A stretch of 64,000 nt of DNA, from assembly GCA_049513975.1 (NCBI GenBank), contig JBEKVM010000011.1:4637-68636 (forward strand), read 5' to 3'. This DNA is from Verrucomicrobiota bacterium. Lineage in GTDB: Bacteria; Verrucomicrobiota; Verrucomicrobiia; Limisphaerales; Palsa-1400. This document shows positions 3,645 to 64,000 of the stretch, one piece after another. Below the pieces are notes generated by a model. That model was not told the DNA's origin. It made no database searches and was given only the letters and a program-made list of their open reading frames with translations. The translations under genes were made by a program, and so were the position numbers. Every line of letters starts with the position of its first letter. Position 1 is the first letter of the stretch.

Positions 3645-6056
3645 TCATTTGCGCAAACGCAGCGCGTTGCCGATGACACAGACCGAACTGAGGCTCATGG
3701 CGGCGGCGGCCAGCATCGGGCTGAGCAAAATTCCAAAAAACGGGTAAAGCAATCCCGCCGCGATGGGAATGCCCGCCGCGTTATAGACAAAGGCGAAAAA
3801 AAGATTTTGCCGGATGTTTCTCATCACTTTCCGGCTCAATTCGATGGCCTTGACCACGCCTTGCAGGTCGCCTTTGACCAGCGTGATGCCGGCGCTGGCC
3901 ATGGCCACGTCGGTGCCCGTGCCCATGGCGATGCCGACCTGGGCCGCCGCCAGGGCGGGGGCGTCGTTGATCCCGTCCCCGGCCATCGCCACAATCCGCC
4001 CGCCCTCCCGCAACCGCCGCACTTCTTCGATCTTCTGCCCCGGACCGGCCTGGGCGCGCACATCTTCAATCTGCAATTGCCGGGCCACGCTGCGCGCGGT
4101 CTGCTCGTTGTCCCCTGTCAACATGACGATCTTCAACCCCATCTGATGGAGCCGCTGGATGGCGGCGGCGGTGGTTGGCTTGACCGGATCAGCCACGGCC
4201 AGCGCCCCGGCGATTTTTCCATCCAGCGCCACAAACACCACCGTTTGTCCCAATGCTTGACACTCCTCCGCCTCCTGGCGCGCCCCGGCCAGGCCGCGCG
4301 CGCCTTGCTCTTCCAGAAACGCGGCATTGCCCGCCGCCACCGGCCTGCCCCCGACGCGCCCCGTCACGCCTCCGCCGGTGTGTGAATTAAATTGTTCCGC
4401 CGGCGCCGGCTTCAATCCGCGTTCCTGCGCGGCGCGCACGATGGCCGCGCCCAGCGGGTGTTCGCTCTGCGCCTCCACCGCCGCCGCCAGCCGGAGCAAT
4501 CCCGCCTCATCCAGTGGAGAGTTGGGAGTGGAGAGTTGTGAATGACGGCATTCTGCACTCCGCACTCCGCACTCCGCACTGAGGAGAATGCGCACCACGC
4601 GGGGGCGCCCTTCGGTCAACGTGCCGGTTTTGTCCAGGACGATGGTGTCCACTTTTTCCAGCGTTTCGAGGGACTCGGCATTTTTCACGAGCACCCCTTC
4701 GCGCGCGCCGCGCCCCACGCCCACCATGATGGACATGGGCGTGGCCAAACCGAGGGCGCAAGGGCAGGCGATGATCAAGACCGCCACCGCGTTGGCCAGG
4801 GCGCGGGCGGCCGCCTTTTCCGGCGCGGCGGCGAGACTGGGATTCGTGCCCAGCCACAACCACAGCGCCAGGGTTATCACGGCCGCGCCCACCACCGCCG
4901 GCACAAACCAGCCCGACACCGCGTCGGCCAGCCGCTGCACCGGGGCGCGGCTCCGCTGGGCCGCCGCCACCATTTCAATGATCTGCGCCAGCAACGTTTC
5001 CCTGCCCACGCGTTCCGCCCGCATCAGGAACGCGCCGGTTTGATTGAGCGTGGCGCCCGTGACCAAATCCCCGGCCGCCTTGGGCACCGGCATCGCCTCG
5101 CCGGTGATCATGGCCTCGTCCACGCTGCTGGCCCCTTCCAGCAAAACTCCGTCCACGGGAATTTTTTCGCCAGGCCGCACCCGCAGGGTGTCTCCTTTGC
5201 GCACCAGCGTGATGGGGAGTTCCATTTCCTGGCCGGAGCGCACCACGCGGGCGCTTTTGGCGGCCTGATGGAGCAGGGCCTGGATGGCCTGGCCGGTGCG
5301 GCGGCGCGCCTTGGCTTCCAGCATCTGGCCCAGCAAGGCCAGCAAGGTGATCATGGCCGCGCTGTCAAAATAAACCGGAATCGGCTCAATGGTGTGGGAG
5401 GAAACCCGGGGCGAAAGGATGAAACTCGCGATGCTGAAGATGTAGGCCGCCACCACGCCCATTCCGATCAGGGTGAACATGTTCGCCCGGCGCAACACCA
5501 CCGAACGCCAGGCCCGCTCCAGGATCGGACGCCCCGCCCAACAAACCACCGCTGTGCATAATCCCCATTGAATCAAATAGTTGACCTCGAACCGCCATTC
5601 CTCGAAGACGCGATAACCGAGCATGTCGCGCATCGCCAGAATCATCACCGGAATGGAAAGCGCCAGCCCGGTCCAAAACCGCCGCGCCAGGTCCCCGGCG
5701 CCGGCCGGCTCCGTCTCGTCCCCGGCCCCGGCCGTCTTCGGCTCCAAATCCATCCCGCAGATCCGACAACTGCCCGGCAGGTCCTGCTCCACCTCCGGGT
5801 GCATCGGGCAGGTGTAGCCTTGTACGGCTTCAGTCATAGCTGCCCCTGGAAGGGTAGGGCGGGCAGTCCCCTGCCCGCCGTCGGGCATTGGCCGGGGAAT
5901 GAACGTCACACTGCCGTCGTGCGGCGCCGCCGGCGGCTGGGCGAGGAATTTCTGGCGGCAATGCTCGCAACAAAAAAACCAGGTTTGCCCGTCGCGTTCC
6001 GCGCGCAGGCCGCTCGCTTCATCCACCTGCATCCCGCAGACAGGATCAACGGCCAT
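3645..6056 (-). CDS. copA: Copper/silver-translocating P1B-type ATPase with N-terminal TRASH/YHS-like and YTCPMHPEV metal-binding modules
   Basis: 803 aa ORF containing CGMQVD...[14 protein letters not shown]...CRICGMDL, the CPC motif ([13 protein letters not shown]), DKTGTLT and [10 protein letters not shown]. Confidence 0.9.
5853..5897. repeat. Palindromic element GGTAGGGCGGGCAGTCCCCTGCCCGCCGTCGGGCATTGGCCGGGG inside the copA coding sequence
   Basis: 9 bp stem GGCGGGCAG / CTGCCCGCC. It is near-identical to the intergenic 62308-62353 and is translated in copA as ..[14 protein letters not shown].. Confidence 0.7.
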
Positions 6057-32869: not shown

Positions 32870-33319
32870 CTATGCTTTCACTTCAGGCGCGGGCGCCGCG
32901 GGCGCCGCGGGCGCGGCCGGCGCGGCGGCCGGCTTGGCCCCCTTGACCACTTTGGGCCGTTTGACTCCATATTTCGACCGGCTCACCCGGCGCTTCTCCA
33001 CCCCCGCGGCATCCAGGGTGCCACGAACGATGTGGTAACGGACGCCCGGCAAATCCTTGACGCGCCCCCCGCGCACCAGGACAATCGAGTGCTCTTGCAA
33101 ATTATGGCCCTCGTCCGGGATGTAGGCGATCACTTCAAACCCGTTGGTCAGCCGCACCTTGGCCACTTTGCGCATGGCCGAATTGGGCTTTTTGGGAGTG
33201 CGCGTCATCACCTGGATGCAGACGCCCCGCCGGTAGGGCGAGGTCTGCAAGGCCGGGGCCTTGGACTTGCTGCGCAATTTCCTTCGTCCGAAACGAACGA
33301 GTTGATTAATCGTCGGCAT
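32870..33319 (-). CDS. rpsL: 30S ribosomal protein S12 with a ~25 aa Ala/Pro C-terminal tail
   Basis: [25 protein letters not shown].. Confidence 0.95.
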
Positions 33320-33373
33320 TTGAGCAATAACGTTTTACCCCCAAATTTCCCCACCAAGGGAAACGGGAGGCGG

Positions 33374-33402
33374 AATATAAATAATCGGCCAAACCATTGC
33401 AA
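33374..33402 (-). promoter_or_regulatory. Candidate sigma-70 promoter of the str/S10/spc/alpha superoperon
   Basis: The minus strand reads TTGCAA-N17-TATATT, about 55 nt upstream of the rpsL ATG. Confidence 0.4.
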
Positions 33403-33580
33403 CAGCAAATTGCGAAAAAAATACATTTCCCTGCAATCTCGGCAAAATCAGCCTGTTTTCAGGGCGCAACTTTTTCCGCCTATTAGTAATGGAGGGCCTT
33501 AAAAGCCCGCTTAACGTCCTGGAATCTACACCCCTCCACCCCGTGAGCAAGCGAAAAAGCAAAAATAATTAAAAAAACCA

Positions 33581-33609
33581 TTGACAGAACATGGCTGCGC
33601 CTTTAGGTT
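33581..33609 (+). promoter_or_regulatory. Candidate promoter for tRNA-Thr/tuf
   Basis: TTGACA-N17-TAGGTT, preceded by an A-rich UP-like tract (aaaaagcaaaaataattaaaaaaa). The -10 element is weak. Confidence 0.3.
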
Positions 33610-33736
33610 TCGAGCAGGTTACAGGTTTGAAATAGCAAAGAAACATTGGCCCCGAGGCCTTTTCGCACGCGAGAGGGCTGGGGTTAGTGGTGTTTTGTCG
33701 TTTATGCACAGTCAGGATGGAGCAATTTTAGCTTTT

Positions 33737-33812
33737 GCCCATGTAGCTCAGTCGGCAGAGCGCGTCCTTGGTAAGGACGAGGTCATCAGTTCGATCCTGA
33801 TCATGGGCTCCA
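33737..33812 (+). tRNA. tRNA-Thr (anticodon GGT), CCA encoded
   Basis: Hand-folded cloverleaf. Acceptor GCCCATG/CATGGGC, D stem GCTC/GAGC, anticodon stem CGTCC/GGACG with loop TTGGTAA, T arm ATCAG-TTCGATC-CTGAT. Confidence 0.9.
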
Positions 33813-33869
33813 TGTAACCGAATGAATTGTCAGAATTTTTAACAAAACAAGAAAACACAGGAGAGCTCA

Positions 33870-35060
33870 ATGGCAAAAGAAGCGTTCCAACGGACCAAAC
33901 CGCATGTCAACATCGGCACCATCGGCCACGTGGACCATGGCAAATCAACCCTCACCGCCGCCATCGTGGAAGTCCAAAGCAAAAAGGGCATGGCCACGCC
34001 CAGGAGTTACGCCGAGATCACCAAAGGCGGCACGGTGCGCGATTCCACCAAGACGGTCACCATCGCGGTGTCGCATACGGAATATGAATCCCCTGCGCGC
34101 CACTATGCGCACGTTGACTGTCCGGGCCATGCCGACTATGTGAAGAACATGATCACCGGGGCGGCGCAGATGGACGGAGCCATCCTGGTGGTGAGCGCGG
34201 CGGACGGCCCGATGCCGCAAACGCGCGAGCATATTCTGCTGGCGCGCCAGGTGGGGGTGCCGGCGATCGTGGTTTACCTCAACAAGGTGGATCTGGTGGA
34301 CGATCCCGAGTTGCTGGATCTGGTGGAGATGGAAATTCGCGACCTGCTCAACAAATATCAATTCCCCGGCGATACCACCCCGGTGATCCGCGGCAGCTCC
34401 AAGGCCGCCCTGGAGGGCGAACCGGAGGGCCTCAAGTCCATCGCCGACCTGCTCGACGCGGTGGACAAGTTTATTCCGCTGCCGACCCGCGAGGTGGACA
34501 AGCCCTTCCTGATGTGCATCGAAGACGTGTTCAATATTGAGGGCCGCGGCACCGTGGTGACGGGCCGGGTGGAACGCGGTGTCTTGAAAAAAATGTCGGA
34601 CGTGGAAATCGTCGGCTTGAGGGAAACCCGCAAGACGGTGGCGACGGACATTGAAATGTTCCGCAAACTGCTGGACAACGCCAGCGCGGGGGACAATGTG
34701 GGAGTGCTGCTGCGCGGCACCAAGAAGGATGAGGTGGAGCGGGGCATGGTGCTGGCTAAGCCCGGCACGATCACCCCGCACACCAAATTCAAGGCGGAAG
34801 TCTATGTGCTGTCCAAGGATGAAGGCGGCCGGCACACGCCGTTTTTCACCAAATATTGTCCGCAATTTTATTTTCGGACCACGGACGTGACCGGCACGGT
34901 GACGCTGCCGCAAGGGGTGGAAATGGTGATGCCCGGCGACAACGTGTCGGTGGACATCGAGTTGATCGCGCCGGTGGCGATGGAAAAAGGGCAGCGCTTC
35001 GCCATCCGCGAAGGCGGCCGCACCATTGGCGCGGGCCGCGTGTCTGAGATCGTCGCTTGA
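33870..35060 (+). CDS. tuf: Elongation factor Tu
   Basis: [32 protein letters not shown].., 396 aa. Confidence 0.97.
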
Positions 35061-38874: not shown

Positions 38875-41800
38875 ATGCCATCACGATTAACAGAACGCGT
38901 CCATTTTGGAAAGATCAAGGAGGTCATAGCCCCGCCGAATTTGATCGAGTTGCAGACCAATTCCTACCGGGAATTTCTCCAGAGTGAGGCTCCGCCCTCC
39001 AAGCGCAAAAACGTGGGATTGCAGGCGGTTTTCACCGAGGTTTTTCCCATCGAGAGTTACGATGGCAAATGCGTGCTGGATTTTCAGAGCTACGAAATAG
39101 GCGAGCCCAAGCACGACTGGCTGGAATGCCTGCGGGAGGGCATCACCTACGGGGCGCCGCTGCACGTCACCTTTTTGCTCAAAGAGGAAAAAGGGGCGAA
39201 AGAGGAAAAAGTGTTCATGGGCGAACTGCCTTTGATGACGCCCCAGGGGACCTTTGTCATCAATGGCGCCGAGCGCGTCATTGTCAGCCAGTTGCACCGG
39301 TCGCCCGGACTGGCCTTTGAAGCCAGCCAGCATCCCAACGGCAAGATCCTGCATTCCTTCCGCATCATCCCCGACCGCGGTTCCTGGTACGAGGCCCAAT
39401 TCGACACCAGCGACATGCTCTACGTTTATTTGGACCGGAAAAAGCGGCGGCGCAAATTCTTGACAACGACGTTCTTCCGGGCGCTGGGCTACGGGACGGA
39501 CGCGGACATTCTCAAGCTGTTTTATGAAATCGAAGAATTGAGCGTGAAGGAGGCGGAAAAACTGGAGGACATCCAGAACAAGGTGCTGGTGGAAGACGCG
39601 GAGGACAAGGACAAGGGGATGGTGGTGGCGCGGGCCTTCGAGCCGCTGTCCAAGGCGGTGGTCAAGCAAATCGCCGAACTGGGCGTGAGCAAAATCCGGG
39701 TGGTGGACACCACGGTGGATGACGGCATCGTGATCAAATGCCTGAAGAAAGATCCGACCAAGAACGAAGAGGAAGCGCTCAAGGACATCTACCGGCGGCT
39801 GCGCCCCGGCGACCCGCCGACGGCGGCCAACGCGCGGGCCCTGATCAAGCGGCTGTTCTTCGACGCCAAACGCTATGATCTGGGCCGGGTGGGCCGTTAC
39901 AAGATCAACCAGAAGCTGGGGATCAAGGGGGGGGACTCGCGCATCCTGACCAAGGAAGACCTGGTGGCGGCGACCAAGTATTTGTTGCGGCTGAAAAAGG
40001 GGGAAGGGTCGCTGGACGACATAGATCACTTGGGAAGCCGGCGCATTCGCACGGTGGGGGAATTGCTGGCCAACCAGTGCCGGGTGGGCCTGGCCCGCAC
40101 GGAGCGGCTGGTCAAGGAGCGGATGACCTTGTTTGATCAAAGCCTGGAGAGCATGTCGCCGCAGAAGTTAATCAATCCCAAGGCGCTCTCGGCTGTGATC
40201 CGGGATTTCTTCGGTCGCAGCCAGCTTTCGCAGTTCATGGACCAGATCAATCCGTTGGCGGAATTGACGCACAAACGCCGCCTCTCGGCCCTGGGGCCGG
40301 GTGGATTGTCGCGGGACCGCGCCGGGTTCGAGGTGCGGGACGTGCATCCCTCGCATTACGGACGCATTTGTCCGGTGGAAACGCCGGAAGGGCCGAACAT
40401 TGGATTGATCGCCTCGCTGGCCACCTTCGCCCAGGTCAATGATTTTGGCTTTTTGGAAACGCCCTACCGGCGCGTGGAAAAAGGGCGGGTGACCAATCAC
40501 CTGGATTATTTGACGGCGGACCGGGAGGAGACCTTCATCGTGGCGCAGGCCAATGCGCCCATTGACGAGAAGGGGAATTTCCTGGGCGAACGGGTCACCT
40601 GCCGGAGCAAAAGCGACTTCATAGACGTGGAGCCGATTCGGGTGGATTACATGGACGTTTCGCCCAAGCAACTGGTCTCGGTGGCGGCGAGCTTGATTCC
40701 GTTTCTGGAACACGACGACGCCAACCGGGCCTTGATGGGGTCGAACATGCAGCGCCAGGCGGTGCCGCTGCTCATCACGGAAGCGCCCTATGTGGCCACC
40801 GGGCTGGAAGAGCGGGTGGCGCGCGACTCGCGGGCCGTGCTGGTGGCGGAGGACGGGGGCAAAGTGGTGTCGGTCACCGGCAACCTGGTGGTGGTGACGG
40901 CGGACGGCAAAATGCCGGACAGCAAGAAGAAGCTGCGGCACGATCCGGCCAACGGCATCTGGGCCTATCCCATCCGCAAATTCATGCGTTCCAATGCCGC
41001 GACCTGCATCAACCAGAAAATACTGGTGGCCAAGGGGGACACGATCAAGAAGGGGCAGGTCATTGCGGACGGACCTTGCACCCAGGGCGGGGAGCTGGCG
41101 CTGGGACGCAATGTCCTGTGCGCGTTCATGCCGTGGAACGGCTACAACTTCGAGGACGCCATCCTCATCAGCGAGCGCATCGTCAAGGACGACGTGTTCA
41201 CCTCCATTCACATTGATGAATTTGAAGTGGGGGCGCGCGACACCAAGCTCGGCCCGGAGGAAATCACGCGGGACATTCCGAACCTGGGGGATGAAGCGTT
41301 GAAAAACCTGGGACCCGACGGGGTGATCCGCATCGGGGCGGAAGTCAAACCGGGGGACATCCTGGTGGGCAAAATCACGCCCAAGAGCGAGACGGAACTG
41401 GCGCCCGAAGAGCGGCTGCTGCGGGCCATCTTTGGTGAAAAAGCGGCCGACGTGAAGGACACTTCGTTGAAAGTTCCATCGGGAACTTACGGCATCGTCA
41501 TGGATGTGAAAGTCTCCTCCAAGAAGGAGCGGGAGGTGGAAGCCAAGGCGGTGCCGGAAACCAAGCGCCACTCCAAGGAAGTGCAGGACGACCACCGGGT
41601 CAAGACGGACGAGTTGCGGGAACAATTGACGGAGGCGCTGAGCAACATCCTGCTGGGCGAAAAAATCCCGCTGGACGTGGTCAATTCCGAGACGGGGGAA
41701 ATCATCATTCCGGCCAACCGCAAAATCACCAAGACCCTGCTGCGCAAGCTGGCGCTGGTCTATGATCGCATCGAGATAGATCCCTCGCCCATCCGCAACA

Positions 41801-58504: not shown

Positions 58505-60607
58505 ATGAAACCATTGTTCCCCGCCAAATTCGCCTTCGCCATCGGCGCCCTCGCCGCCCTGATCTTCGCCGCCTGCCAGGCAACCAAAGAGCCGGCCACC
58601 ATCGCCAACCCAAAGGCCTTCGCCCCAGCCTCCTCCCGGCCAACTGCCGACGCACCCACAGCCATCCCATCCGTCTCATCCAACCTGCCCGCGCCCGCAT
58701 CTCCCGCCGCCGCAGCTCCCGCCGCCGCAGTTCCAACAGCCCCTGTCACCCCCGCCCAAGAGCCTGCCAGCCCGGCGGCGGAAGCCACTCCGGCTGCGGG
58801 AGCGGCTGCCGAAGAGCGGGCCACCTCCAGCGATCCCATTGAGCGGATCAAGGAGGAGGGTTTGAACCATTCCCAAGCGATGGATACTTTGAGCTACCTG
58901 AGCGATGTCATCGGGCCGCGCCTGACCGGCTCGCCCAACCTCAAGCGCGCCAATCAGTGGACCAAAATGAAATTGGAAAGCTGGGGCTTGACCAACGCCC
59001 ATTTGGAACCTTGGGGACCGTTCGGACGGGGCTGGGAGGCAAAACGGTTTTCCGCTCAAGTCATTGAGCCGCAGGCCTTTCCCATCATTGCTTATCCCCT
59101 GGCCTGGTCGCCCGGATATGACAAGCCGATGGAGGGGGATGCGGTTTTCATTGACTTGGCGCAGACCACTAATTTGGATCAATACAAGGGAAAACTCAAG
59201 GGCGCCATGGTCCTCGTCAGCCCCATGCGCACCAACCTCGCCGTGCCATTTCAACCTCTGGCAGTGCGGTTGGCGGACAGCAATCTGCTGGTGGCGGCAA
59301 ACACTGTGGACGACCTGGGATTCTTCGGCATGGTGCAGTCGCGCGGCGGCGGGGGCGGAGGCCGCCGGGGCGGATTTGCATCGCAGCTCGGAGCAAACCG
59401 AATTTCGCCGGCACGATTGCTTTCGTTTTTGACTGAGGAAAAGGTGGGGGTCGTGTTGAGCGTCACCTCGCAGTTCGACAACGGGACGGTTTTGGTGCAG
59501 AGCGCCTCGGTTCCGGCGGGCACCAACGCCGGCGGCGGCGGCCGCGGAGGGAGCAGCCCGTATTCCACCAACGCCCCGGCCATGCCCCCGCAAATCGCCG
59601 TGGCGGTGGAGAGCTACAACCGGATCGTCCGCATGATCAAGGCGGGGGAGAAAGTGAAAATGCAGATTGACCTGGAGGTCAAGTTTCACAATGAGGATTT
59701 GATGGCTTACAACACCATCGCCGAAATTCCCGGCACCGATTTGAAGGACCAAATCGTCATGCTCGGCGGGCACATGGACTCGTGGCCGGCGGGAACAGGC
59801 GCCACGGATAACGGCGTCGGCGCGGCCGCCTGCATGGAAGCGGTGCGCATTATCCAGGCGGCCGGCTTGCATCCGCGCCGCACCATCCGCATCGCCCTTT
59901 GGACCGGGGAAGAAGAAGGCCTCCTCGGCTCCAGGGCTTATGTGACCCAACATTTCGGCTCGAATGCAGGAGGACGGGGCGGCGGCGCGGGGCGCGGTGG
60001 CCGCGGCGGCCGGGGAGGACGCGGTGGCGGCTTGAGTGCGCCGGGAACCAACGCCCCAACCGAATTGGCCGCAAACACCAACAACCCGCGCGTCGCCGGT
60101 TCCGTTGCCCCCATGGCTTTTCCAATCGATGCACAAACCACCAACAACCCGGCCGCGCAGAGTGGTGCTCTTGCCGGAGCCGGAGCCTCCACCAACGCGC
60201 CCGCCCGCAGAGGGTTCACTCCCGGCCCCGAATACGACAAACTCTCCGCCTACTTCAACCTCGACAACGGCGGCGGGAAAATCCGGGGCATTTTCATGGA
60301 GCAAAACGAGGCTGTCCGCCCCATTTTCCGGCGCTGGATGGAACCGTTCCGCAGCCTGGGCGCGGAAACTCTCAGCATGTCGCGCACCGGTTCCACCGAC
60401 CACGTTTCCTTCGACAGCATTGGCCTGCCCGGATTTCAGTTCCTCCAGGATCCGATGGATTACTTCACCCACACCCACCACACCAGTGAGGACGTGTTTG
60501 ATCGCATCTCGGCCGAGGATCTCAAACAAGCGGCGACCGTCATGGCGGCCTTTGTCTATGACGCGGCGATGATGGATGAAAAATTGCCGCGCAGCCCGCG
60601 CAATTAG
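58505..60607 (+). CDS. M28-family aminopeptidase with a PA domain (lipoprotein-like signal) and Gly/Arg-rich inserts
   Basis: ..YNTIAEIPGTDLKDQIVMLGGHMDSWPAGTGATDNGVGAAACME.. and ..WTGEEEGLLGS.. Confidence 0.8.
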   Translation: MKPLFPAKFAFAIGALAALIFAACQATKEPATIANPKAFAPASSRPTADAPTAIPSVSSNLPAPASPAAAAPAAAVPTAPVTPAQEPASPAAEATPAAGAAAEERATSSDPIERIKEEGLNHSQAMDTLSYLSDVIGPRLTGSPNLKRANQWTKMKLESWGLTNAHLEPWGPFGRGWEAKRFSAQVIEPQAFPIIAYPLAWSPGYDKPMEGDAVFIDLAQTTNLDQYKGKLKGAMVLVSPMRTNLAVPFQPLAVRLADSNLLVAANTVDDLGFFGMVQSRGGGGGGRRGGFASQLGANRISPARLLSFLTEEKVGVVLSVTSQFDNGTVLVQSASVPAGTNAGGGGRGGSSPYSTNAPAMPPQIAVAVESYNRIVRMIKAGEKVKMQIDLEVKFHNEDLMAYNTIAEIPGTDLKDQIVMLGGHMDSWPAGTGATDNGVGAAACMEAVRIIQAAGLHPRRTIRIALWTGEEEGLLGSRAYVTQHFGSNAGGRGGGAGRGGRGGRGGRGGGLSAPGTNAPTELAANTNNPRVAGSVAPMAFPIDAQTTNNPAAQSGALAGAGASTNAPARRGFTPGPEYDKLSAYFNLDNGGGKIRGIFMEQNEAVRPIFRRWMEPFRSLGAETLSMSRTGSTDHVSFDSIGLPGFQFLQDPMDYFTHTHHTSEDVFDRISAEDLKQAATVMAAFVYDAAMMDEKLPRSPRN

Positions 60608-60631: not shown

Positions 60632-62284
60632 ATGAAATCAGCCGCCCTGTTGTGCGCCTTGTCCTGCCTGGCCGCCCTGCCCTCCCCCGCGCCGGGCCAG
60701 ACTAACGATGGCGCCTTGTTGTCCCGGGCCGAAGCCAGCAACTGCGAGGAGACCAGCCGCCATGAGGACGTGCTCCGTTTTTTCAACGAACTCCAGAAAC
60801 GCAGCCCGCTCCTGCGCCAGCAAATATTCGGCCGCACCGAGGAAGGCCGCCCCATGCCGCTCATCATCCTGGGCGACCCGCCCGTCTCCCAGCCGCGCGA
60901 GGCGCGCGCTTCCGGCAAGCCGGTCATTTTCGTCATGGCCAACATCCACGCCGGCGAAGTGGAGGGCAAGGAAGCCGTGCAACATCTGGCGCGGCGCATT
61001 CTGACGGGCGGCCTTCATTCTCTGCTTGACAAACTCATCATTCTGATCGCTCCGGATTACAACGCCGATGGCAATGAACAGATCAGCCCCACCCACCGCA
61101 CCGCCCAAAACGGCCCCATCGGCGGCGTCGGCATCCGCGAGAACGCGATGGGCCTGGACCTCAACCGCGATTATATAAAAATGGAAGCGCCGGAAACCCG
61201 CGCGTTGATCGGTCTGTTTAACACCTGGGACCCGGACCTGACGGTGGATCTTCACACCACCGACGGTTCTTATCACGGCTACCATCTCACTTATTCCATC
61301 CCGCTCAACCCGACGGTGGACGCGCGCCTTCTCTCCTATTCCCGCGACATAATGATGGCCGCCCTGACCCAGGCCATGAGCCAGGACGGCTTTCGCACTT
61401 ATTACTACGGCAATTTCTCCGGCCGCGCCCCCGGGCCGGGCGAACCGGAAACGCGCACTTGGAACGCCTTCTCCCAGCAACCGCGCGTCGGCCAAAATTA
61501 CCTCGGCTTCCGCAACCGCCTGACCATCCTTTCCGAAGCCTACAGCTACCTGGATTTCCACGATCGCATCCAAGTCACCGCCGTCTTCGTGGAAGAAATT
61601 CTCAAATACTCCGCCGCCCACGCCGATGAAATCCGCCAGGTCACGGCCCGCGCCGACCGGGACACCGTCAGCAACGCGCGTTCCGCCAACCCGCCCCTAA
61701 TCGGCGTGGAATACGAACCCAAGGCCCTGCCCGAAAAAGTTCCCTTGCTGGTCGGCCAGGTCACCAACGCCCTCAACCCGCGCTCCGTCCGGAACATGAC
61801 CGTGGTCGTCAAAGACAAGTTCACCGCCGTGCCCATGCTGGATTACGAGCTCTTCGCCGCCACCCGCTCCGTTCCCCAAGGCCGCGCCTATCTTTTCCGC
61901 GCCGAAGACGGCCTGCGCGTGGTCACGGACAAACTCCTGGCCCACGGCATCGCCGTCGAGGAGTTGACCGCCCCGCTGGCCGTCGGCGTGGAAAATTTCA
62001 CGATCACCAATGTCCACAAGAATCCTGTCATCTTTCAGCGCCATCACGAAGTCAAACTCGCCGGCCAGTTCAAAACGGAAACCGTGACTTTCCCGGAAGG
62101 CTCCCGCCTGGTCCGCACTGACCAGCCCCTGGGCACCCTGGCCGCCTACTTGCTTGAACCCGAAAGCGACGACGGCCTGGTGACCTGGAATTTCCTCGAC
62201 GCTTATTTGGCCCCCGGCCAAGTCTATCCCATCTCCAAGCTGACGCAGGACGCCAAAATCTCCAGCCGCCTCCTGAGCCAGTGA
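60632..62284 (+). CDS. M14-family zinc carboxypeptidase, secreted
   Basis: ..[15 protein letters not shown].., ..DLNRDYIK.. and ..[13 protein letters not shown].. Confidence 0.8.
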
Positions 62285-62307
62285 TTTTTTCCCAAGCGTG
62301 GTGGGCC

Positions 62308-62410
62308 GGGTAGGGCGGGCAGTCCTCTGCCCGCCGTCGAGCATTGGCCGAGGAATCAATGTTGCGCTACCAGCGTCCGGCGGCCAGAGGACTGCCCGCC
62401 CTGCCACCCA
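62308..62410. repeat. Two inverted copies of the GGGCGGGCAGTCCTCTG palindromic element
   Basis: AGGGCGGGCAGTCCTCTGCCCGCCG (62312-62336) faces the reverse complement of 62381-62405 (AGGGCGGGCAGTCCTCTGGCCGCCG). Same family as 5853-5897 inside copA. Confidence 0.7.
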
Positions 62411-62461
62411 TGACTGCCGCATTACGCGCGGCCTGCTTATGCTGGCGTTTGCCTTTATCAT

Positions 62462-62680
62462 TTGTATATGTTCACAGCGGTTTATCGAAAGTGCGGCAAG
62501 TGGTGGGCGGCATACGTGGAAGAGGTGCCTGGAGTCAACACTCAGGGCGCCACGCTCGCGGAGACGCGCGCCAACTTGAAAGAAGCGCTGGCCTTGATGT
62601 TGGAGACCAACCGCGAACTGGCCCGCGAACAAGAGCGGGACCCCGCCTGTATCCGCGAGTCGGTCAGCGTGGACGCGTGA
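62462..62680 (+). CDS. hicB: HicB-family antitoxin (UPF0150-like)
   Basis: ..FTAVYRKCGKWWAAYVEEVPGVNTQGATLAETRANLKEALALMLE.. is typical of short HicB. Confidence 0.7.
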   Translation: MYMFTAVYRKCGKWWAAYVEEVPGVNTQGATLAETRANLKEALALMLETNRELAREQERDPACIRESVSVDA

Positions 62681-62730
62681 AACGCCTCGAACTCGAACGG
62701 CATCTGCGGGAGCAAATGCCGTGTTTTGAA
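62677..62730 (+). pseudogene. hicA: HicA toxin remnant
   Basis: A GTG overlapping the hicB stop gives VKRLELERHLREQ, a HicA-like N-terminus. All HicA similarity is lost after about 13 codons. Confidence 0.35.
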
Positions 62731-62833
62731 GCGCTTGAGGACAGCTTTGGTGACGTGATCGGCGTACAGAGCCTGCAAGAGTTGAAACCTCGCCCAATCG
62801 CCTTTCACAGCCTGGGCACATGTTTCTGCTCAT

Positions 62834-63451
62834 CTACGGCCTTCGACTCTGATTGCCGTACTTCTTGATTTCTAGGATTCTCAAAAATCGCCGAAACGAC
62901 CTTGAATTTGCCGCAATATTTAACGGGTCGGCTTTCGTCAAGATTCTCTCCGCGTCATCAATTTTATCATAGCTCTTGTTTAAAGCCATTTTCGAAAGAA
63001 GCGCAGCCGCATCGACGTGATCCGCCTTGTCTGGCGTAATTCTTTCCAGGTCAGAGGCTGAAACGTTGAATCGCCCAGACATGCTTGCGATCGCGCTGGG
63101 GTCGCCCAGGACCCAGTTTTCGAACTTCCGCGTCTTCATCACGACCTTGTATTCGGAAATACTAAGTCCTTCGTAAGCTATCCGGAGTGCGTCTTCCAAT
63201 AGGCGTGCCCAGGAACCAGGGCACGTGGCCCTGGTTTCGAAATCGATGAGAAAAACCGCTCGATCGACGCCCCTATTAGCAAGAATATGCACCCTGCCCT
63301 TCACAGACCGAACGATTTGGGCCACAGGAGCCAAAGGTTGCATATCGGCGTAAAGTGGGTCAAGTATTGCGCAAGGTGTGCTAAGTCGTCGAATTATCTT
63401 CGGGATGCAACGAAACTCAGCCTGCCCATCTACGATAAGACCTATTCTCAC
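62834..63451 (-). CDS. DUF4276-like protein (possible Toprim-like fold)
   Basis: 205 aa starting (GTG)RIGLIVDGQAEFRCIPKI, with ..RAVFLIDFETRA.. My recollection of the DUF4276 family is its ~200 aa size, an acidic motif on the N-terminal strand, and pairing with an AAA_21 ATPase. The GTG start overlaps the upstream stop (GTGA). Confidence 0.5.
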   Translation of the reverse strand: MRIGLIVDGQAEFRCIPKIIRRLSTPCAILDPLYADMQPLAPVAQIVRSVKGRVHILANRGVDRAVFLIDFETRATCPGSWARLLEDALRIAYEGLSISEYKVVMKTRKFENWVLGDPSAIASMSGRFNVSASDLERITPDKADHVDAAALLSKMALNKSYDKIDDAERILTKADPLNIAANSRSFRRFLRILEIKKYGNQSRRP

Positions 63452-64000
63452 GGTTTTTCCTGCTCCCTGTCAGCATTAGCAGCCGATTTTGGAGGTATCG
63501 CCTCGGAAACCGTGCCGCTATCGATCAGTTCGAAGGTCGCAACTTCGCCCGACTCCCAAAGCGCGGTTATACTTGGGTCAAGTTCATTGAGTTTCTTGAC
63601 GTGGGACTCGCCATCTGTGCGCCACATAACCCAGACCTTATCTGGCGTCACATGATCGATGATAACAGGCGAGTGAGTCGTAATTAGGATCTGTTGCGGT
63701 TTCATTCCTCCTGCGGTAGCCTCTGAGCAGGCGCTGAGGAGATTTCTAATCACCCACGGATGAACCGAGTTCTCGAGTTCTTCGAGGACCAGCATCGTTC
63801 TGGTAGGATCGAAAATTGCGACTAAAAGACAGAGCGTCTGAATGGTACCGTCAGAAATCTCCTCAACCGTCCACGGACGTCCAAATCCTTTCTCATGGAA
63901 AAAAAGGCCCAAGGTCCTGGAGGTAGTATAATTGACTTCTATTCGCTCAAGGGCTGGCAAAACTCGCCGCATAGTTTGGAGAATTCTTTGCCAAACCTCC
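63448..64000 (-). CDS. ABC-type (AAA_21 / SMC-RecF-like) ATPase, C-terminal part; the 5' end is beyond the window
   Basis: ..EEISDGTIQTLCLLVAIF.. (signature-like), ..MLVLEELENSVHP.. (Walker B / D-loop) and ..ILITTHSPVII.. (H-loop). The frame stays open upstream of the track's ATG (63972) to the window edge. Confidence 0.65.
   Translation of the reverse strand, partial: EVWQRILQTMRRVLPALERIEVNYTTSRTLGLFFHEKGFGRPWTVEEISDGTIQTLCLLVAIFDPTRTMLVLEELENSVHPWVIRNLLSACSEATAGGMKPQQILITTHSPVIIDHVTPDKVWVMWRTDGESHVKKLNELDPSITALWESGEVATFELIDSGTVSEAIPPKSAANADREQEKP

What the first reader, a model, noticed from the sequence alone, without database searches (positions are those of the whole stretch)
62285..64000. 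Low-GC island ending in a coupled ABC-ATPase + DUF4276/Toprim-like pair: candidate two-gene defence module
GC content drops sharply here. I counted 27/60 at 62881-62940 and 29/60 at 63781-63840, against 36/60 at 40021-40080. The island holds a minus-strand gene pair whose stop and start overlap as GTGA. The upstream gene has the ABC/SMC-type signature, Walker B (LVLEELENSVHP) and H-loop (TTHSP). The downstream 205 aa protein looks like DUF4276, with acidic motifs IVDGQAE and FLIDFE placed as in Toprim folds. An ABC ATPase plus a small Toprim-like partner is the architecture of PARIS (AriA with DUF4435 AriB) and, in fused form, of OLD-family nucleases. As far as I recall, the ATPase+DUF4276 combination has no experimentally defined function. 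The island also carries palindromic repeats and a decayed HicAB module. That context is typical of a defence island, but the ATPase is cut off by the window.
Basis: partly seen in the sequence, partly recalled or inferred. Interest (0 to 1): 0.75.

Follow-up and report, generated by a model that had tools for sequence, protein, structure and literature searches.

The report
HEC-01 ATPase–DUF4276 defence gene pair
The low-GC patch at the window's end is a horizontally acquired two-gene cassette (an ABC ATPase plus a small DUF4276 nuclease-like protein) that matches the already named candidate anti-phage system HEC-01, so it is a real but ordinary find.

Summary
A minus-strand pair with a GTGA stop/start overlap sits in the lowest-GC stretch of the window (GC 0.505, against 0.61 for the window). 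The 205 aa protein is DUF4276, above Pfam's cut-off. The upstream gene is an ABC ATPase (AAA_21/AAA_15). An identical public contig gave its full 455 aa, including Walker A.

Both proteins hit the PADLOC models HEC-01A and HEC-01B best. HEC-01 was named by Payne et al. (bioRxiv 2024), who saw no protection in E. coli. A cold-seep HEC-01 protected against at least one of T7, T5 and T4 (Nat Commun 2026). The related Mad3–Mad4 pair belongs to the MADS system.

The pair is conserved: 13 of 13 genomes from at least five phyla have the ATPase directly upstream, often with a 4-nt overlap. A strain about 99% identical in the flanks lacks the cassette. It lies beside a truncated hicA, between peptidase genes, so this is not a rich defence island.

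The Toprim assignment of DUF4276 rests on the literature and on motifs. Foldseek found no Toprim match, and hhalign against P2 Old gave only 30% probability.

Verdict: new member of a known candidate family; low interest.

The parts
62834..63451 (-). HEC-01B: 205 aa DUF4276 protein, the putative Toprim-superfamily nuclease effector. GTG start.
   Evidence: Pfam PF14103, 41.9 bits against a cut-off of 30.2. PADLOC HEC-01B PDLC04196, E=2.2e-13, covering 1-188 of 197 model positions. 50 homologues found, all PF14103. D70, E111, D144, K163 and S183-R187 (within NSRSFRRF) are invariant, and E12 and E72 are conserved in 90% or more. AF2 model pLDDT 95.4.
63448..64000 (-). HEC-01A: C-terminal 183 codons of a 455 aa ABC ATPase. 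The gene runs on to about 64815 on the identical contig L001.
   Evidence: Pfam AAA_21, 5.5e-20. The full-length protein from L001 gives AAA_21 1e-29, AAA_15 8e-18 and PADLOC HEC-01A 2.5e-56. L001 matches the window with 0 mismatches in 1600 nt. Walker A is GANASGKSN. All ABC motifs are invariant. Foldseek gives PtuA and SMC heads at E 1e-13.
63448..63451 (-). GTGA stop/start overlap, implying translational coupling of A and B.
   Evidence: The same 4-nt overlap (ATGA or TTGA) occurs in 6 of 13 homologous loci from other phyla.
62728..64000 (.). Low-GC, strain-variable cassette (continues to about 64900-64969 beyond the window).
   Evidence: GC 0.505 and GC3 0.53 against 0.75-0.80 in neighbours. 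Similarity to L022 ends at 62727. In L019, about 99% identical in the flanks, window/extended 62614-64969 is replaced by 86 nt.
62677..62727 (+). hicA remnant: the first 13-16 codons only (VKRLELERHLREQ...).
   Evidence: Aligns with the intact 61 aa HicA of L022 (PF07927, 43.4 bits) up to this point, then diverges. The remnant itself has no Pfam hit.
62468..62680 (+). HicB-like (UPF0150) antitoxin gene, intact; a neighbour of the cassette, not part of it.
   Evidence: Pfam UPF0150 at 25.2 bits (below the 27.3 cut-off) and HicB_lk_antitox at E=0.013. 91% identical to the L022 orthologue, which is followed by an intact HicA.
62309..62405 (.). Palindromic (REP-like) repeat downstream of the M14 peptidase gene. 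Independent of the cassette.
   Evidence: 28-nt arms, 93% complementary. The core GGCGGGCAG-N4-CTGCCCGCC also occurs at 5858-5879; 3 matches against 0.19 expected. Present in L019, which lacks the cassette, and absent from L022.

Best explanation
The feature is a horizontally acquired two-gene cassette of the HEC-01 type. HEC-01A is a 455 aa ABC ATPase of the defence-associated AAA_15/AAA_21 (OLD/PtuA/AriA-like) group. HEC-01B is a 205 aa DUF4276 protein.

Shown here:
- Both genes are intact and carry all catalytic motifs.
- They are translationally coupled.
- They are always neighbours across phyla.
- They are compositionally foreign to this genome.
- They are present in one strain and absent from a strain about 99% identical in the flanks.

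Inferred: the two proteins form a complex. The ATPase would act as the ATP-dependent sensor or switch for an infection cue. The DUF4276 subunit would be the metal-dependent nuclease effector, using E12, D70/E72 and E111 as a Toprim-like acidic site, with K163 and the NSRSFRRF helix available for nucleic-acid or partner binding. Once released or activated it would cut phage or host nucleic acid (DNA or tRNA) and stop phage propagation, by analogy with PARIS, OLD and Gabija. I put identity as HEC-01 at about 0.9 and the sensor-plus-nuclease anti-phage mechanism at about 0.55.
For: Family identity:
- PADLOC's best hits are HEC-01B (2.2e-13) and HEC-01A (2.5e-56, nearly full model length).
- Pfam gives DUF4276 above its cut-off, plus AAA_21 and AAA_15.

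ATPase:
- Walker A, signature, Walker B and H-loop are invariant and the Q-loop (Q235) is conserved in 90% or more.
- The AF2 model (pLDDT 90) matches PtuA and SMC heads at E about 1e-13.
- The profile hits OLD, PtuA, GajA and AriA chains in the PDB.

Effector:
- The conserved acidic residues sit after strand 1, after the strand at 64-70 and after the strand at 100-106.
- RloB is the only recurrent weak Pfam cross-hit, in 5 of 33 members.
- hhalign of a 193-sequence DUF4276 alignment against the P2 Old C-terminal region aligns B 5-85 with the start of the Old Toprim domain (probability 29.6%, E 5.7e-4).

Literature:
- DUF4276 and RloB are assigned to the Toprim superfamily with the catalytic residues conserved (PMC12065111).
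- HEC-01B shares a metal site with BpOLD (bioRxiv 10.1101/2024.01.29.577857).
- A HEC-01 protected E. coli B against at least one of T7, T5 and T4 (PMC12881386).
- mad3 and mad4 deletions reduce MADS defence.

Linkage and mobility:
- 13 of 13 genomic loci have the ATPase directly upstream, and 6 show a 4-nt overlap.
- GC3 is 0.53 against about 0.78 in neighbours.
- The cassette is absent from L019.
Against: - No biochemical activity has been reported for any HEC-01 or DUF4276 protein in the papers I could read.
- The HEC-01 tested by Payne et al. gave no protection against their phage panel.
- The positive cold-seep test is a spot assay with no fold-change reported for HEC-01.
- Foldseek of a very confident model found no Toprim, OLD or AriB match in PDB or BFVD. 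No hit reached E<=1e-3 and the best TM was about 0.38.
- A profile search of PDB sequences found nothing.
- The hhalign support is weak and misaligns the second acidic motif.
- No sigma-70-like promoter was found upstream of the ATPase gene.
- This locus is not in a defence island.
Confidence: 0.6

Rival explanations
1. The pair is a selfish addiction or toxin-antitoxin-like module rather than an anti-phage system. The nuclease would be a toxin held in check by the ATPase, and the cassette would persist by post-segregational killing.
For: It sits in a slot occupied by TA genes: HicB with a hicA stump, and an MNT-like NTase. Pfam calls AAA_21 a 'putative AbiEii toxin, Type IV TA system'. One HEC-01 showed no phage protection. 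The cassette is strain-variable.
Against: Another HEC-01 did protect against phage. The closest ATPase relatives (PtuA, GajA, AriA, OLD) are all defence sensors or effectors. TA behaviour and abortive-infection defence are not mutually exclusive.
Confidence: 0.15
2. The pair is an orphaned accessory module of a larger methylation-linked system (Hma-embedded HEC-01, or Mad3-Mad4 of MADS) and is non-functional on its own here.
For: HEC-01 was discovered embedded in Hma systems. Mad3 and Mad4 work inside the 8-gene MADS. The ATPase hits the mad3 model at 9e-26. One of 13 related loci carries HmaB and HmaC next to the pair.
Against: No methyltransferase, helicase or MAD6-8 homologue lies within about 5 kb on either side; the neighbours are peptidases. 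B hits no mad4 model at E<=1. 12 of 13 related loci lack Hma. The pair is conserved as an autonomous unit in unrelated contexts.
Confidence: 0.07
3. It is a divergent PARIS system (AriA + AriB) or a split OLD-family nuclease.
For: The architecture is the same: an ABC ATPase plus a small putative Toprim partner. The generic AriA/AAA_21 model hits at 6.7e-31. OLD, GajA and AriA chains are hit in the PDB.
Against: B matches no AriB/DUF4435 or Toprim_OLD model in PADLOC or Pfam, even at E<=10. The HEC-01A models score far better than AriA (189 against 106 bits). The nearest solved ATPase structures are PtuA, not AriA.
Confidence: 0.03
4. It is a housekeeping DNA-repair or recombination ATPase pair (RecF/SMC-like), unrelated to conflict.
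For: One homologue is annotated 'recombination protein F'. There are weak SMC_N and Rad50 similarities.
Against: Foreign composition. Absent from a strain about 99% identical in the flanks. Patchy distribution across phyla in varied contexts. Best matches are defence-system models.
Confidence: 0.03

Closest known systems
HEC-01 (Hma-embedded candidate 01; PADLOC-DB v2; Payne et al., bioRxiv 10.1101/2024.01.29.577857)
   Same: Two genes: an ABC ATPase (HEC-01A) followed by a DUF4276/TOPRIM-like protein (HEC-01B). Both window proteins hit these models best, over nearly the full model length. Gene order, strand and tight coupling are the same.
   Different: This copy is not embedded in an Hma system but lies between peptidase genes. 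It is only 48-58% identical to its nearest relatives outside its own 90% cluster. Activity of this copy is untested.
Mad3-Mad4 of MADS (methylation-associated defence system; Maestri et al.)
   Same: An AAA_15/21 ABC ATPase plus a DUF4276 protein. Both are needed for full MADS defence.
   Different: MADS is an 8-gene system whose detection model treats MAD6-8 as mandatory, and none is present here. B does not hit PADLOC's mad4 model. The NCBIfam MAD3 score is 47.8 bits (C-terminal fragment queried) against a cut-off of 420.
PARIS (AriA ABC ATPase + AriB DUF4435 Toprim nuclease)
   Same: The logic is the same: a separate ABC ATPase sensor and a small Toprim-type effector. This is the best mechanistic template, in which the trigger releases the nuclease, which then cleaves tRNA.
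   Different: The effector family differs (DUF4276, not DUF4435). The ATPase is much closer to the HEC-01A models. No trigger is known.
OLD-family nucleases / Gabija GajA
   Same: An ABC ATPase of the same broad group. The profile hits 6p74 OLD at 1.6e-11 and GajA at 4e-8. The nuclease is Toprim-type.
   Different: In OLD and GajA the Toprim domain is fused to the ATPase; here it is a separate, translationally coupled gene. Similarity of B to the P2 Old Toprim domain is only marginal.
Septu / retron type I-A PtuA ATPases
   Same: These are the closest solved structures to the ATPase model (Foldseek E about 1e-13).
   Different: PtuA pairs with an HNH nuclease (PtuB), not with DUF4276. TM-scores are only 0.35-0.48 because the inserts differ.
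Menshen NsnC C-terminal DUF4276 domains and RloB
   Same: The DUF4276 effector domain is assigned to the Toprim superfamily together with RloB. Weak RloB cross-hits were seen here in 5 of 33 members.
   Different: In Menshen the domain is fused to NsnC within a three-gene system. Here it is a free-standing 205 aa protein.

Membership tests
HEC-01 (PADLOC candidate system) | Protein matching a HEC-01A ATPase model | tested here: met
   PDLC04182: E=2.5e-56, 189 bits, protein 9-423 against model 5-388 of 406. It is the best of 122 PADLOC hits. The window fragment alone gives 6e-32.
HEC-01 (PADLOC candidate system) | Protein matching a HEC-01B (DUF4276) model | tested here: met
   PDLC04196: E=2.2e-13, protein 1-193 against model 1-188 of 197. 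All five PADLOC hits are HEC-01B models.
HEC-01 (PADLOC candidate system) | The two genes are adjacent on the same strand | tested here: met
   4-nt GTGA overlap. 13 of 13 related loci have the same arrangement.
HEC-01 (PADLOC candidate system) | Called as HEC-01 by the PADLOC pipeline with its own per-model thresholds | not testable with these tools
   Only the HMM library is available, not the pipeline or its system rules.
HEC-01 (PADLOC candidate system) | Anti-phage activity | not testable with these tools
   The literature is mixed: negative, positive. This copy is untested.
DUF4276 (Pfam PF14103) | Score above the Pfam gathering threshold | tested here: met
   41.9 bits against 30.2. All 33 aligned homologues also match.
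ABC ATPase (AAA_21/AAA_15, OLD-like group) | Walker A, Q-loop, ABC signature, Walker B with catalytic Glu, and H-loop | tested here: met
   G34-N36-G39-K40, S321-D322-G323-T324, E345-E346 and H381 are invariant, and Q235 is conserved in 90% or more of 38 sequences. The fold matches PtuA and SMC heads.
Toprim superfamily | Conserved Glu after strand 1 and an acidic pair (DxD-like) after strand 3 | tested here: met
   E12 follows strand 2-7, D70-x-E72 ends strand 64-70, and E111 follows strand 100-106. The second motif is DxE rather than DxD.
Toprim superfamily | Detectable fold or profile similarity to established Toprim domains | tested here: inconclusive
   Foldseek against PDB and BFVD gave no hit at E<=1e-3 and no Toprim protein among the top 50. 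The HMM against PDB found nothing. hhalign against P2 Old gave probability 1.3% with 33 sequences and 29.6%, E 5.7e-4 with 193 sequences. Published analyses assert the relationship.
PARIS | AriB effector of the DUF4435 family | tested here: not met
   No AriB hit in PADLOC and no DUF4435 hit in Pfam, even at E<=10 across 33 members.
MADS | MAD6, MAD7 and MAD8 present (mandatory in the published model) | tested here: not met
   Neighbours within about 5 kb are the M28, M14 and M16 peptidases, HicB, an NTase and a 3-keto-disaccharide hydrolase. B does not hit the mad4 model.
OLD-family nuclease (classes 1-2) | ATPase and Toprim domains fused in one polypeptide | tested here: not met
   They are separate ORFs. 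The ATPase ends in a disordered tail with no extra domain.
HicAB toxin-antitoxin (neighbour) | Intact HicA toxin next to HicB | tested here: not met
   The window's hicA matches the L022 orthologue only up to 62727, after which the frame diverges. The remnant has no Pfam hit. L022's HicA scores 43.4 bits on PF07927.

The most novel reading that the evidence does not exclude
DUF4276 may not be a conventional Toprim nuclease. It could be a strongly derived or separate fold: a very confident model finds no Toprim neighbour with Foldseek. It would have its own catalytic set (E12, D70xE72, E111, D144) and an invariant NSRSFRRF helix. In that case HEC-01 would use an effector chemistry or target different from PARIS, OLD and Gabija. 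A more speculative add-on is that the two orphan antitoxin genes flanking this copy (HicB and the MNT-like NTase) now modulate it.
Probability: 0.12. Interest if true: 0.55.

Novelty: new member of a known kind. Interest (0 to 1): 0.22.

Why it matters
HEC-01 is an abundant candidate defence type. It was among the 12 most common candidate types in cold-seep genomes. The DUF4276 subfamily found here has 256 clusters at E<=1e-30 and 1562 at E<=1e-3 among 50%-identity representatives. Its mechanism, trigger and target are unknown, and the phage-protection data conflict.

This locus adds little that is new. It does offer a clean natural example: a stand-alone, intact, translationally coupled pair, outside any Hma or MADS context. 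It shows a presence/absence polymorphism between strains about 99% identical in the flanks, probably Acidobacteriota. That supports the view that the pair is an autonomous mobile unit rather than an accessory of methylation systems. It also gives a defined construct (about 2.2 kb) for testing.

Tried and rejected
1. Structure search of the DUF4276 model (pLDDT 95) against PDB and BFVD found no significant match, so the Toprim fold could not be confirmed that way.
2. A profile of the family against PDB sequences found nothing relevant.
3. I tried to build an OLD-Toprim alignment for profile-profile comparison. The protein search with the P2 Old C-terminal region returned only 5 near-identical fragments, and tblastn against plasmids returned nothing. 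I was left with a single-sequence template.
4. The ORF after the NTase gene on L001 (EWVKKAEEDFLAASSLGRRR...) looked like an N-terminal HEPN remnant. Neither Pfam nor tblastn against all fetched loci supports this, so it stays a guess.
5. I searched for terminal direct or inverted repeats that could explain how the cassette moves and found only chance-level short repeats.
6. An 80-nt element shared by L019 and L022 at the junction is not found in the window.
7. No sigma-70-like promoter or terminator brackets the pair.
8. Krishnan et al. 2020 (PMC7544218), the ABC ATPase classification paper, is not held in the library.
9. The MANTIS preprint turned out to be irrelevant.
10. 'Candidatus Acidoferrum' is not in the NCBI taxonomy copy. 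The host assignment therefore rests on one source annotation and my own knowledge that this is a GTDB-style Acidobacteriota name.
Full report
**1. What is in the sequence**

On the minus strand, ORF 62834..63451 (205 aa, GTG start) is preceded by an ORF that runs off the window end and stops at 63448. The stop and the start overlap as GTGA.

The anomaly is strong. The pair has GC 0.505 and GC3 0.53-0.54. The flanking peptidase genes have GC3 0.75-0.80, and none of 620 sliding 2-kb windows of the 64 kb falls below 0.551.

The drop does not begin at 62285, however. Bases 62251-62750 still have GC 0.61. The low-GC segment is essentially the two genes.

**2. Extending the contig**

The exact 205 aa protein is on record on several public contigs. 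L001 (6.6 kb) overlaps the window with 0 mismatches in 1600 nt, so it extends the window by about 5 kb.

The ATPase is 455 aa with Walker A GANASGKSN. Upstream of it lie a 119 aa MNT-like nucleotidyltransferase gene (NTP_transf_2), an M16 peptidase and a 3-keto-disaccharide hydrolase. On the window side lie a HicB-like ORF, an M14 peptidase, an M28-like peptidase, rpoZ and smpB.

The setting is therefore a small variable slot between housekeeping-type genes, not a defence island.

**3. Family assignment**

The 205 aa protein matches Pfam DUF4276 above the curated cut-off (41.9 against 30.2 bits). In PADLOC it matches only HEC-01B models (best 2.2e-13, nearly full length).

The full-length ATPase matches AAA_21 (1e-29) and AAA_15 (8e-18). 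Its best PADLOC hit is HEC-01A (2.5e-56, 189 bits), well ahead of the generic AriA/AAA_21 model (106 bits), mad3 (89 bits), AbiLi, Old and GajA. The window's C-terminal ATPase fragment scores 47.8 bits on NCBIfam's MAD3 model, against a cut-off of 420.

**4. What the literature says**

- Payne et al. (bioRxiv 10.1101/2024.01.29.577857) named HEC-01 as an ABC ATPase associated with a TOPRIM protein. They reported that HEC-01B shares a metal-binding site with Burkholderia OLD. They saw no protection against the phages tested in E. coli.
- A Nature Communications 2026 paper (PMC12881386) tested one cold-seep HEC-01 in E. coli B and lists it among four candidates that protected against at least one of T7, T5 and T4. 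No fold-change is given for HEC-01.
- Others still treat HEC-01 as unvalidated.
- The Menshen analysis (PMC12065111) places DUF4276 and RloB in the Toprim superfamily and identifies Mad4 of MADS as a DUF4276 homologue.
- The PARIS paper adds 'MADS3-4' to the systems that combine an ABC ATPase with a TOPRIM nuclease.
- In MADS, deleting mad3 or mad4 reduces defence.

The ATPase+DUF4276 combination is thus named, catalogued and partly tested.

**5. The ATPase**

In a 38-sequence alignment the Walker A residues (G34, N36, G39, K40), the signature S321-D322-G323-T324, Walker B and catalytic Glu (E345, E346) and the H-loop H381 are invariant, and the Q-loop Q235 is conserved in 90% or more.

The AF2 model is confident (pLDDT 90.3, pTM 0.91). 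It shows a beta-rich first insert, a short helical second insert and a disordered C-terminal tail.

Foldseek's best PDB matches are PtuA ATPases of Septu and type I-A retrons, followed by SMC heads (E 1e-13 to 1e-11, TM 0.35-0.48). A profile search of PDB sequences hits class 2 OLD (1.6e-11), PtuA, GajA, SMC, AriA and Rad50. The single sequence hits nothing, so no member of the family itself has a solved structure.

**6. The DUF4276 protein**

Fifty homologues were found, all about 200-215 aa and all PF14103. The nearest outside its own 90% cluster is 48-52% identical.

D70, E111, W113, D144, K163 and S183-R187 (within the NSRSFRRF motif) are invariant. G9, E12 and E72 are conserved in 90% or more.

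The AF2 model is very confident (pLDDT 95.4). E12 follows strand 2-7, D70-x-E72 ends strand 64-70, and E111 follows strand 100-106. A helical C-terminal half comes after that. This layout is what a Toprim core would give.

My independent tests were weak, though:
- Foldseek found no hit at E<=1e-3 in PDB or BFVD, and no Toprim protein among the top 50.
- The family HMM found nothing in PDB sequences.
- hhalign against P2 Old gave 1.3% probability with 33 sequences. With 193 sequences it gave 29.6% (E 5.7e-4). It aligned B 5-85 with the start of Old's Toprim domain (LIVDGQAE with LLVEGKTE) but did not register the second motif properly.
- RloB was the only Pfam family weakly hit by several members (5 of 33, best E 0.018). 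That agrees with the published DUF4276-RloB link.

I therefore treat 'Toprim-superfamily nuclease' as the literature's assignment. It is consistent with the motifs but was not confirmed here.

**7. Conservation of the pair**

A scan of one genome per species returned 13 loci, from Acidobacteriota, Chloroflexota, Proteobacteria, Eremiobacterota and Actinomycetota. In all 13, an ATPase homologue (31-50% identity) lies immediately upstream on the same strand. Six show the same 4-nt stop/start overlap.

Of 108 neighbouring ORFs, HmaB and HmaC, Shedu SduA and a PD-T4-6 kinase each appear once. The rest are mostly housekeeping genes. The pair therefore behaves as an autonomous unit.

The family is widespread. 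There are 1562 cluster representatives at E<=1e-3 and 256 at E<=1e-30 among 1.84 billion representatives, and 813 ATPase homologues at E<=1e-10.

**8. How the locus arose**

A metagenome scan with the adjacent M14 peptidase found the following.

- **L019** has M14 99.5% identical, the available 197 aa C-terminal part of M16 100% identical, and flanking DNA 97.5-99% identical, yet it lacks the pair. Extended coordinates 62614-64969 (2356 nt) are replaced by 86 nt.
- **L022**, from a related lineage (87% identity), has HicB followed by an intact 61 aa HicA (PF07927, 43.4 bits) and then an IS-type transposase-like ORF.

In the window, hicA matches L022 only up to 62727 and then diverges. The cassette abuts a truncated toxin gene. 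No terminal repeats flank it.

The slot between the two peptidase genes is thus a small hotspot with different contents in close relatives. The cassette was gained (or lost) recently. The palindromic repeat at 62309-62405 has a relative at 5858-5879. It is present in L019 but absent from L022, so it is a separate REP-like element.

**9. Host**

A fragment at least 90% identical to the ATPase is annotated 'Candidatus Acidoferrum sp.'. As far as I know this is an Acidobacteriota lineage; the name is not in the NCBI taxonomy copy. This is a weak indication only.

**10. Mechanism**

*Shown:*
- Both genes are intact, with all motifs.
- They are translationally coupled.
- They are strictly linked across phyla.
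- They are compositionally foreign.
- They are strain-variable.

*Inferred by analogy with PARIS, OLD, Gabija and Septu:* the ATPase is the ATP-dependent sensor or switch, and the DUF4276 protein is a metal-dependent nuclease effector. The trigger and the target (DNA or tRNA) are unknown.

*Rivals:*
- A TA-like addiction module (0.15).
- An orphaned accessory of Hma or MADS (0.07).
- A PARIS or OLD variant (0.03).
- A housekeeping repair pair (0.03).

**11. Verdict**

This is a new, fairly divergent member of the known candidate system HEC-01. Interest is low (0.22). What remains open is the biochemistry of DUF4276 and the conflicting phage data, and this locus does not resolve either.

Noticed in passing
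window 5852-5926 and 62309-62405: Copies of a GC-rich palindromic (REP-like) element with core GGCGGGCAG-N4-CTGCCCGCC. Three core matches were found against 0.19 expected. The copy at 62309-62405 is a 28-nt inverted pair directly after the M14 peptidase stop codon. It may be a terminator or a dispersed repeat family.
   Followed up: partly
L001 4012-4135 (about 64861-64984 on the extended window, minus strand): Directly after the MNT-like nucleotidyltransferase gene, overlapping its stop, a short ORF begins EWVKKAEEDFLAASSLGRRR... It resembles the N-terminus of a HEPN toxin truncated by the cassette. Pfam and tblastn gave no support.
   Followed up: partly
L019 11982-12068 and L022 about 2100-2200: The 86 nt that replace the cassette in the cassette-free strain share an approximately 80-nt motif (CCCAAGG..CGCCGCGCCTCCAAACGGAAT..GCCGGGCATC..TCTTAA) with the region after hicA in L022. 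It is not found in the window. It may be a small mobile or structured element at this hotspot.
   Followed up: partly
L022 2358-4130: In the related lineage the same slot, downstream of intact hicBA, holds a 590 aa ORF that looks like an IS-type transposase. No family search was run on it. This fits the slot being an insertion hotspot.
   Followed up: no
window 58505-60607 (+): A 700 aa predicted secreted peptidase (I call it M28-like without a family search). It carries unusual glycine/arginine-rich inserts (GGGGGGRRGG; GGRGGGAGRGGRGGRGGRGGG) and a long Ala/Pro-rich N-terminal linker.
   Followed up: no
window 33001-34000: The second-lowest 1-kb GC value in the window (0.523 against a mean of 0.61). 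It may be another foreign insert.
   Followed up: no
PADLOC model PDLC04144: This model is labelled HEC-01B but matches the ATPase (3.6e-37 on the full-length protein), not the DUF4276 protein. It looks like a labelling inconsistency in the library, or a variant with swapped gene order.
   Followed up: no
L014, L006, L007, L013 (genome loci): Several HEC-01-like pairs sit next to very large ORFs (1070-1199 aa). Among all 108 neighbouring ORFs, HmaB and HmaC were each hit once. I did not map which locus carries them, and the other large neighbours were not identified individually.
   Followed up: partly
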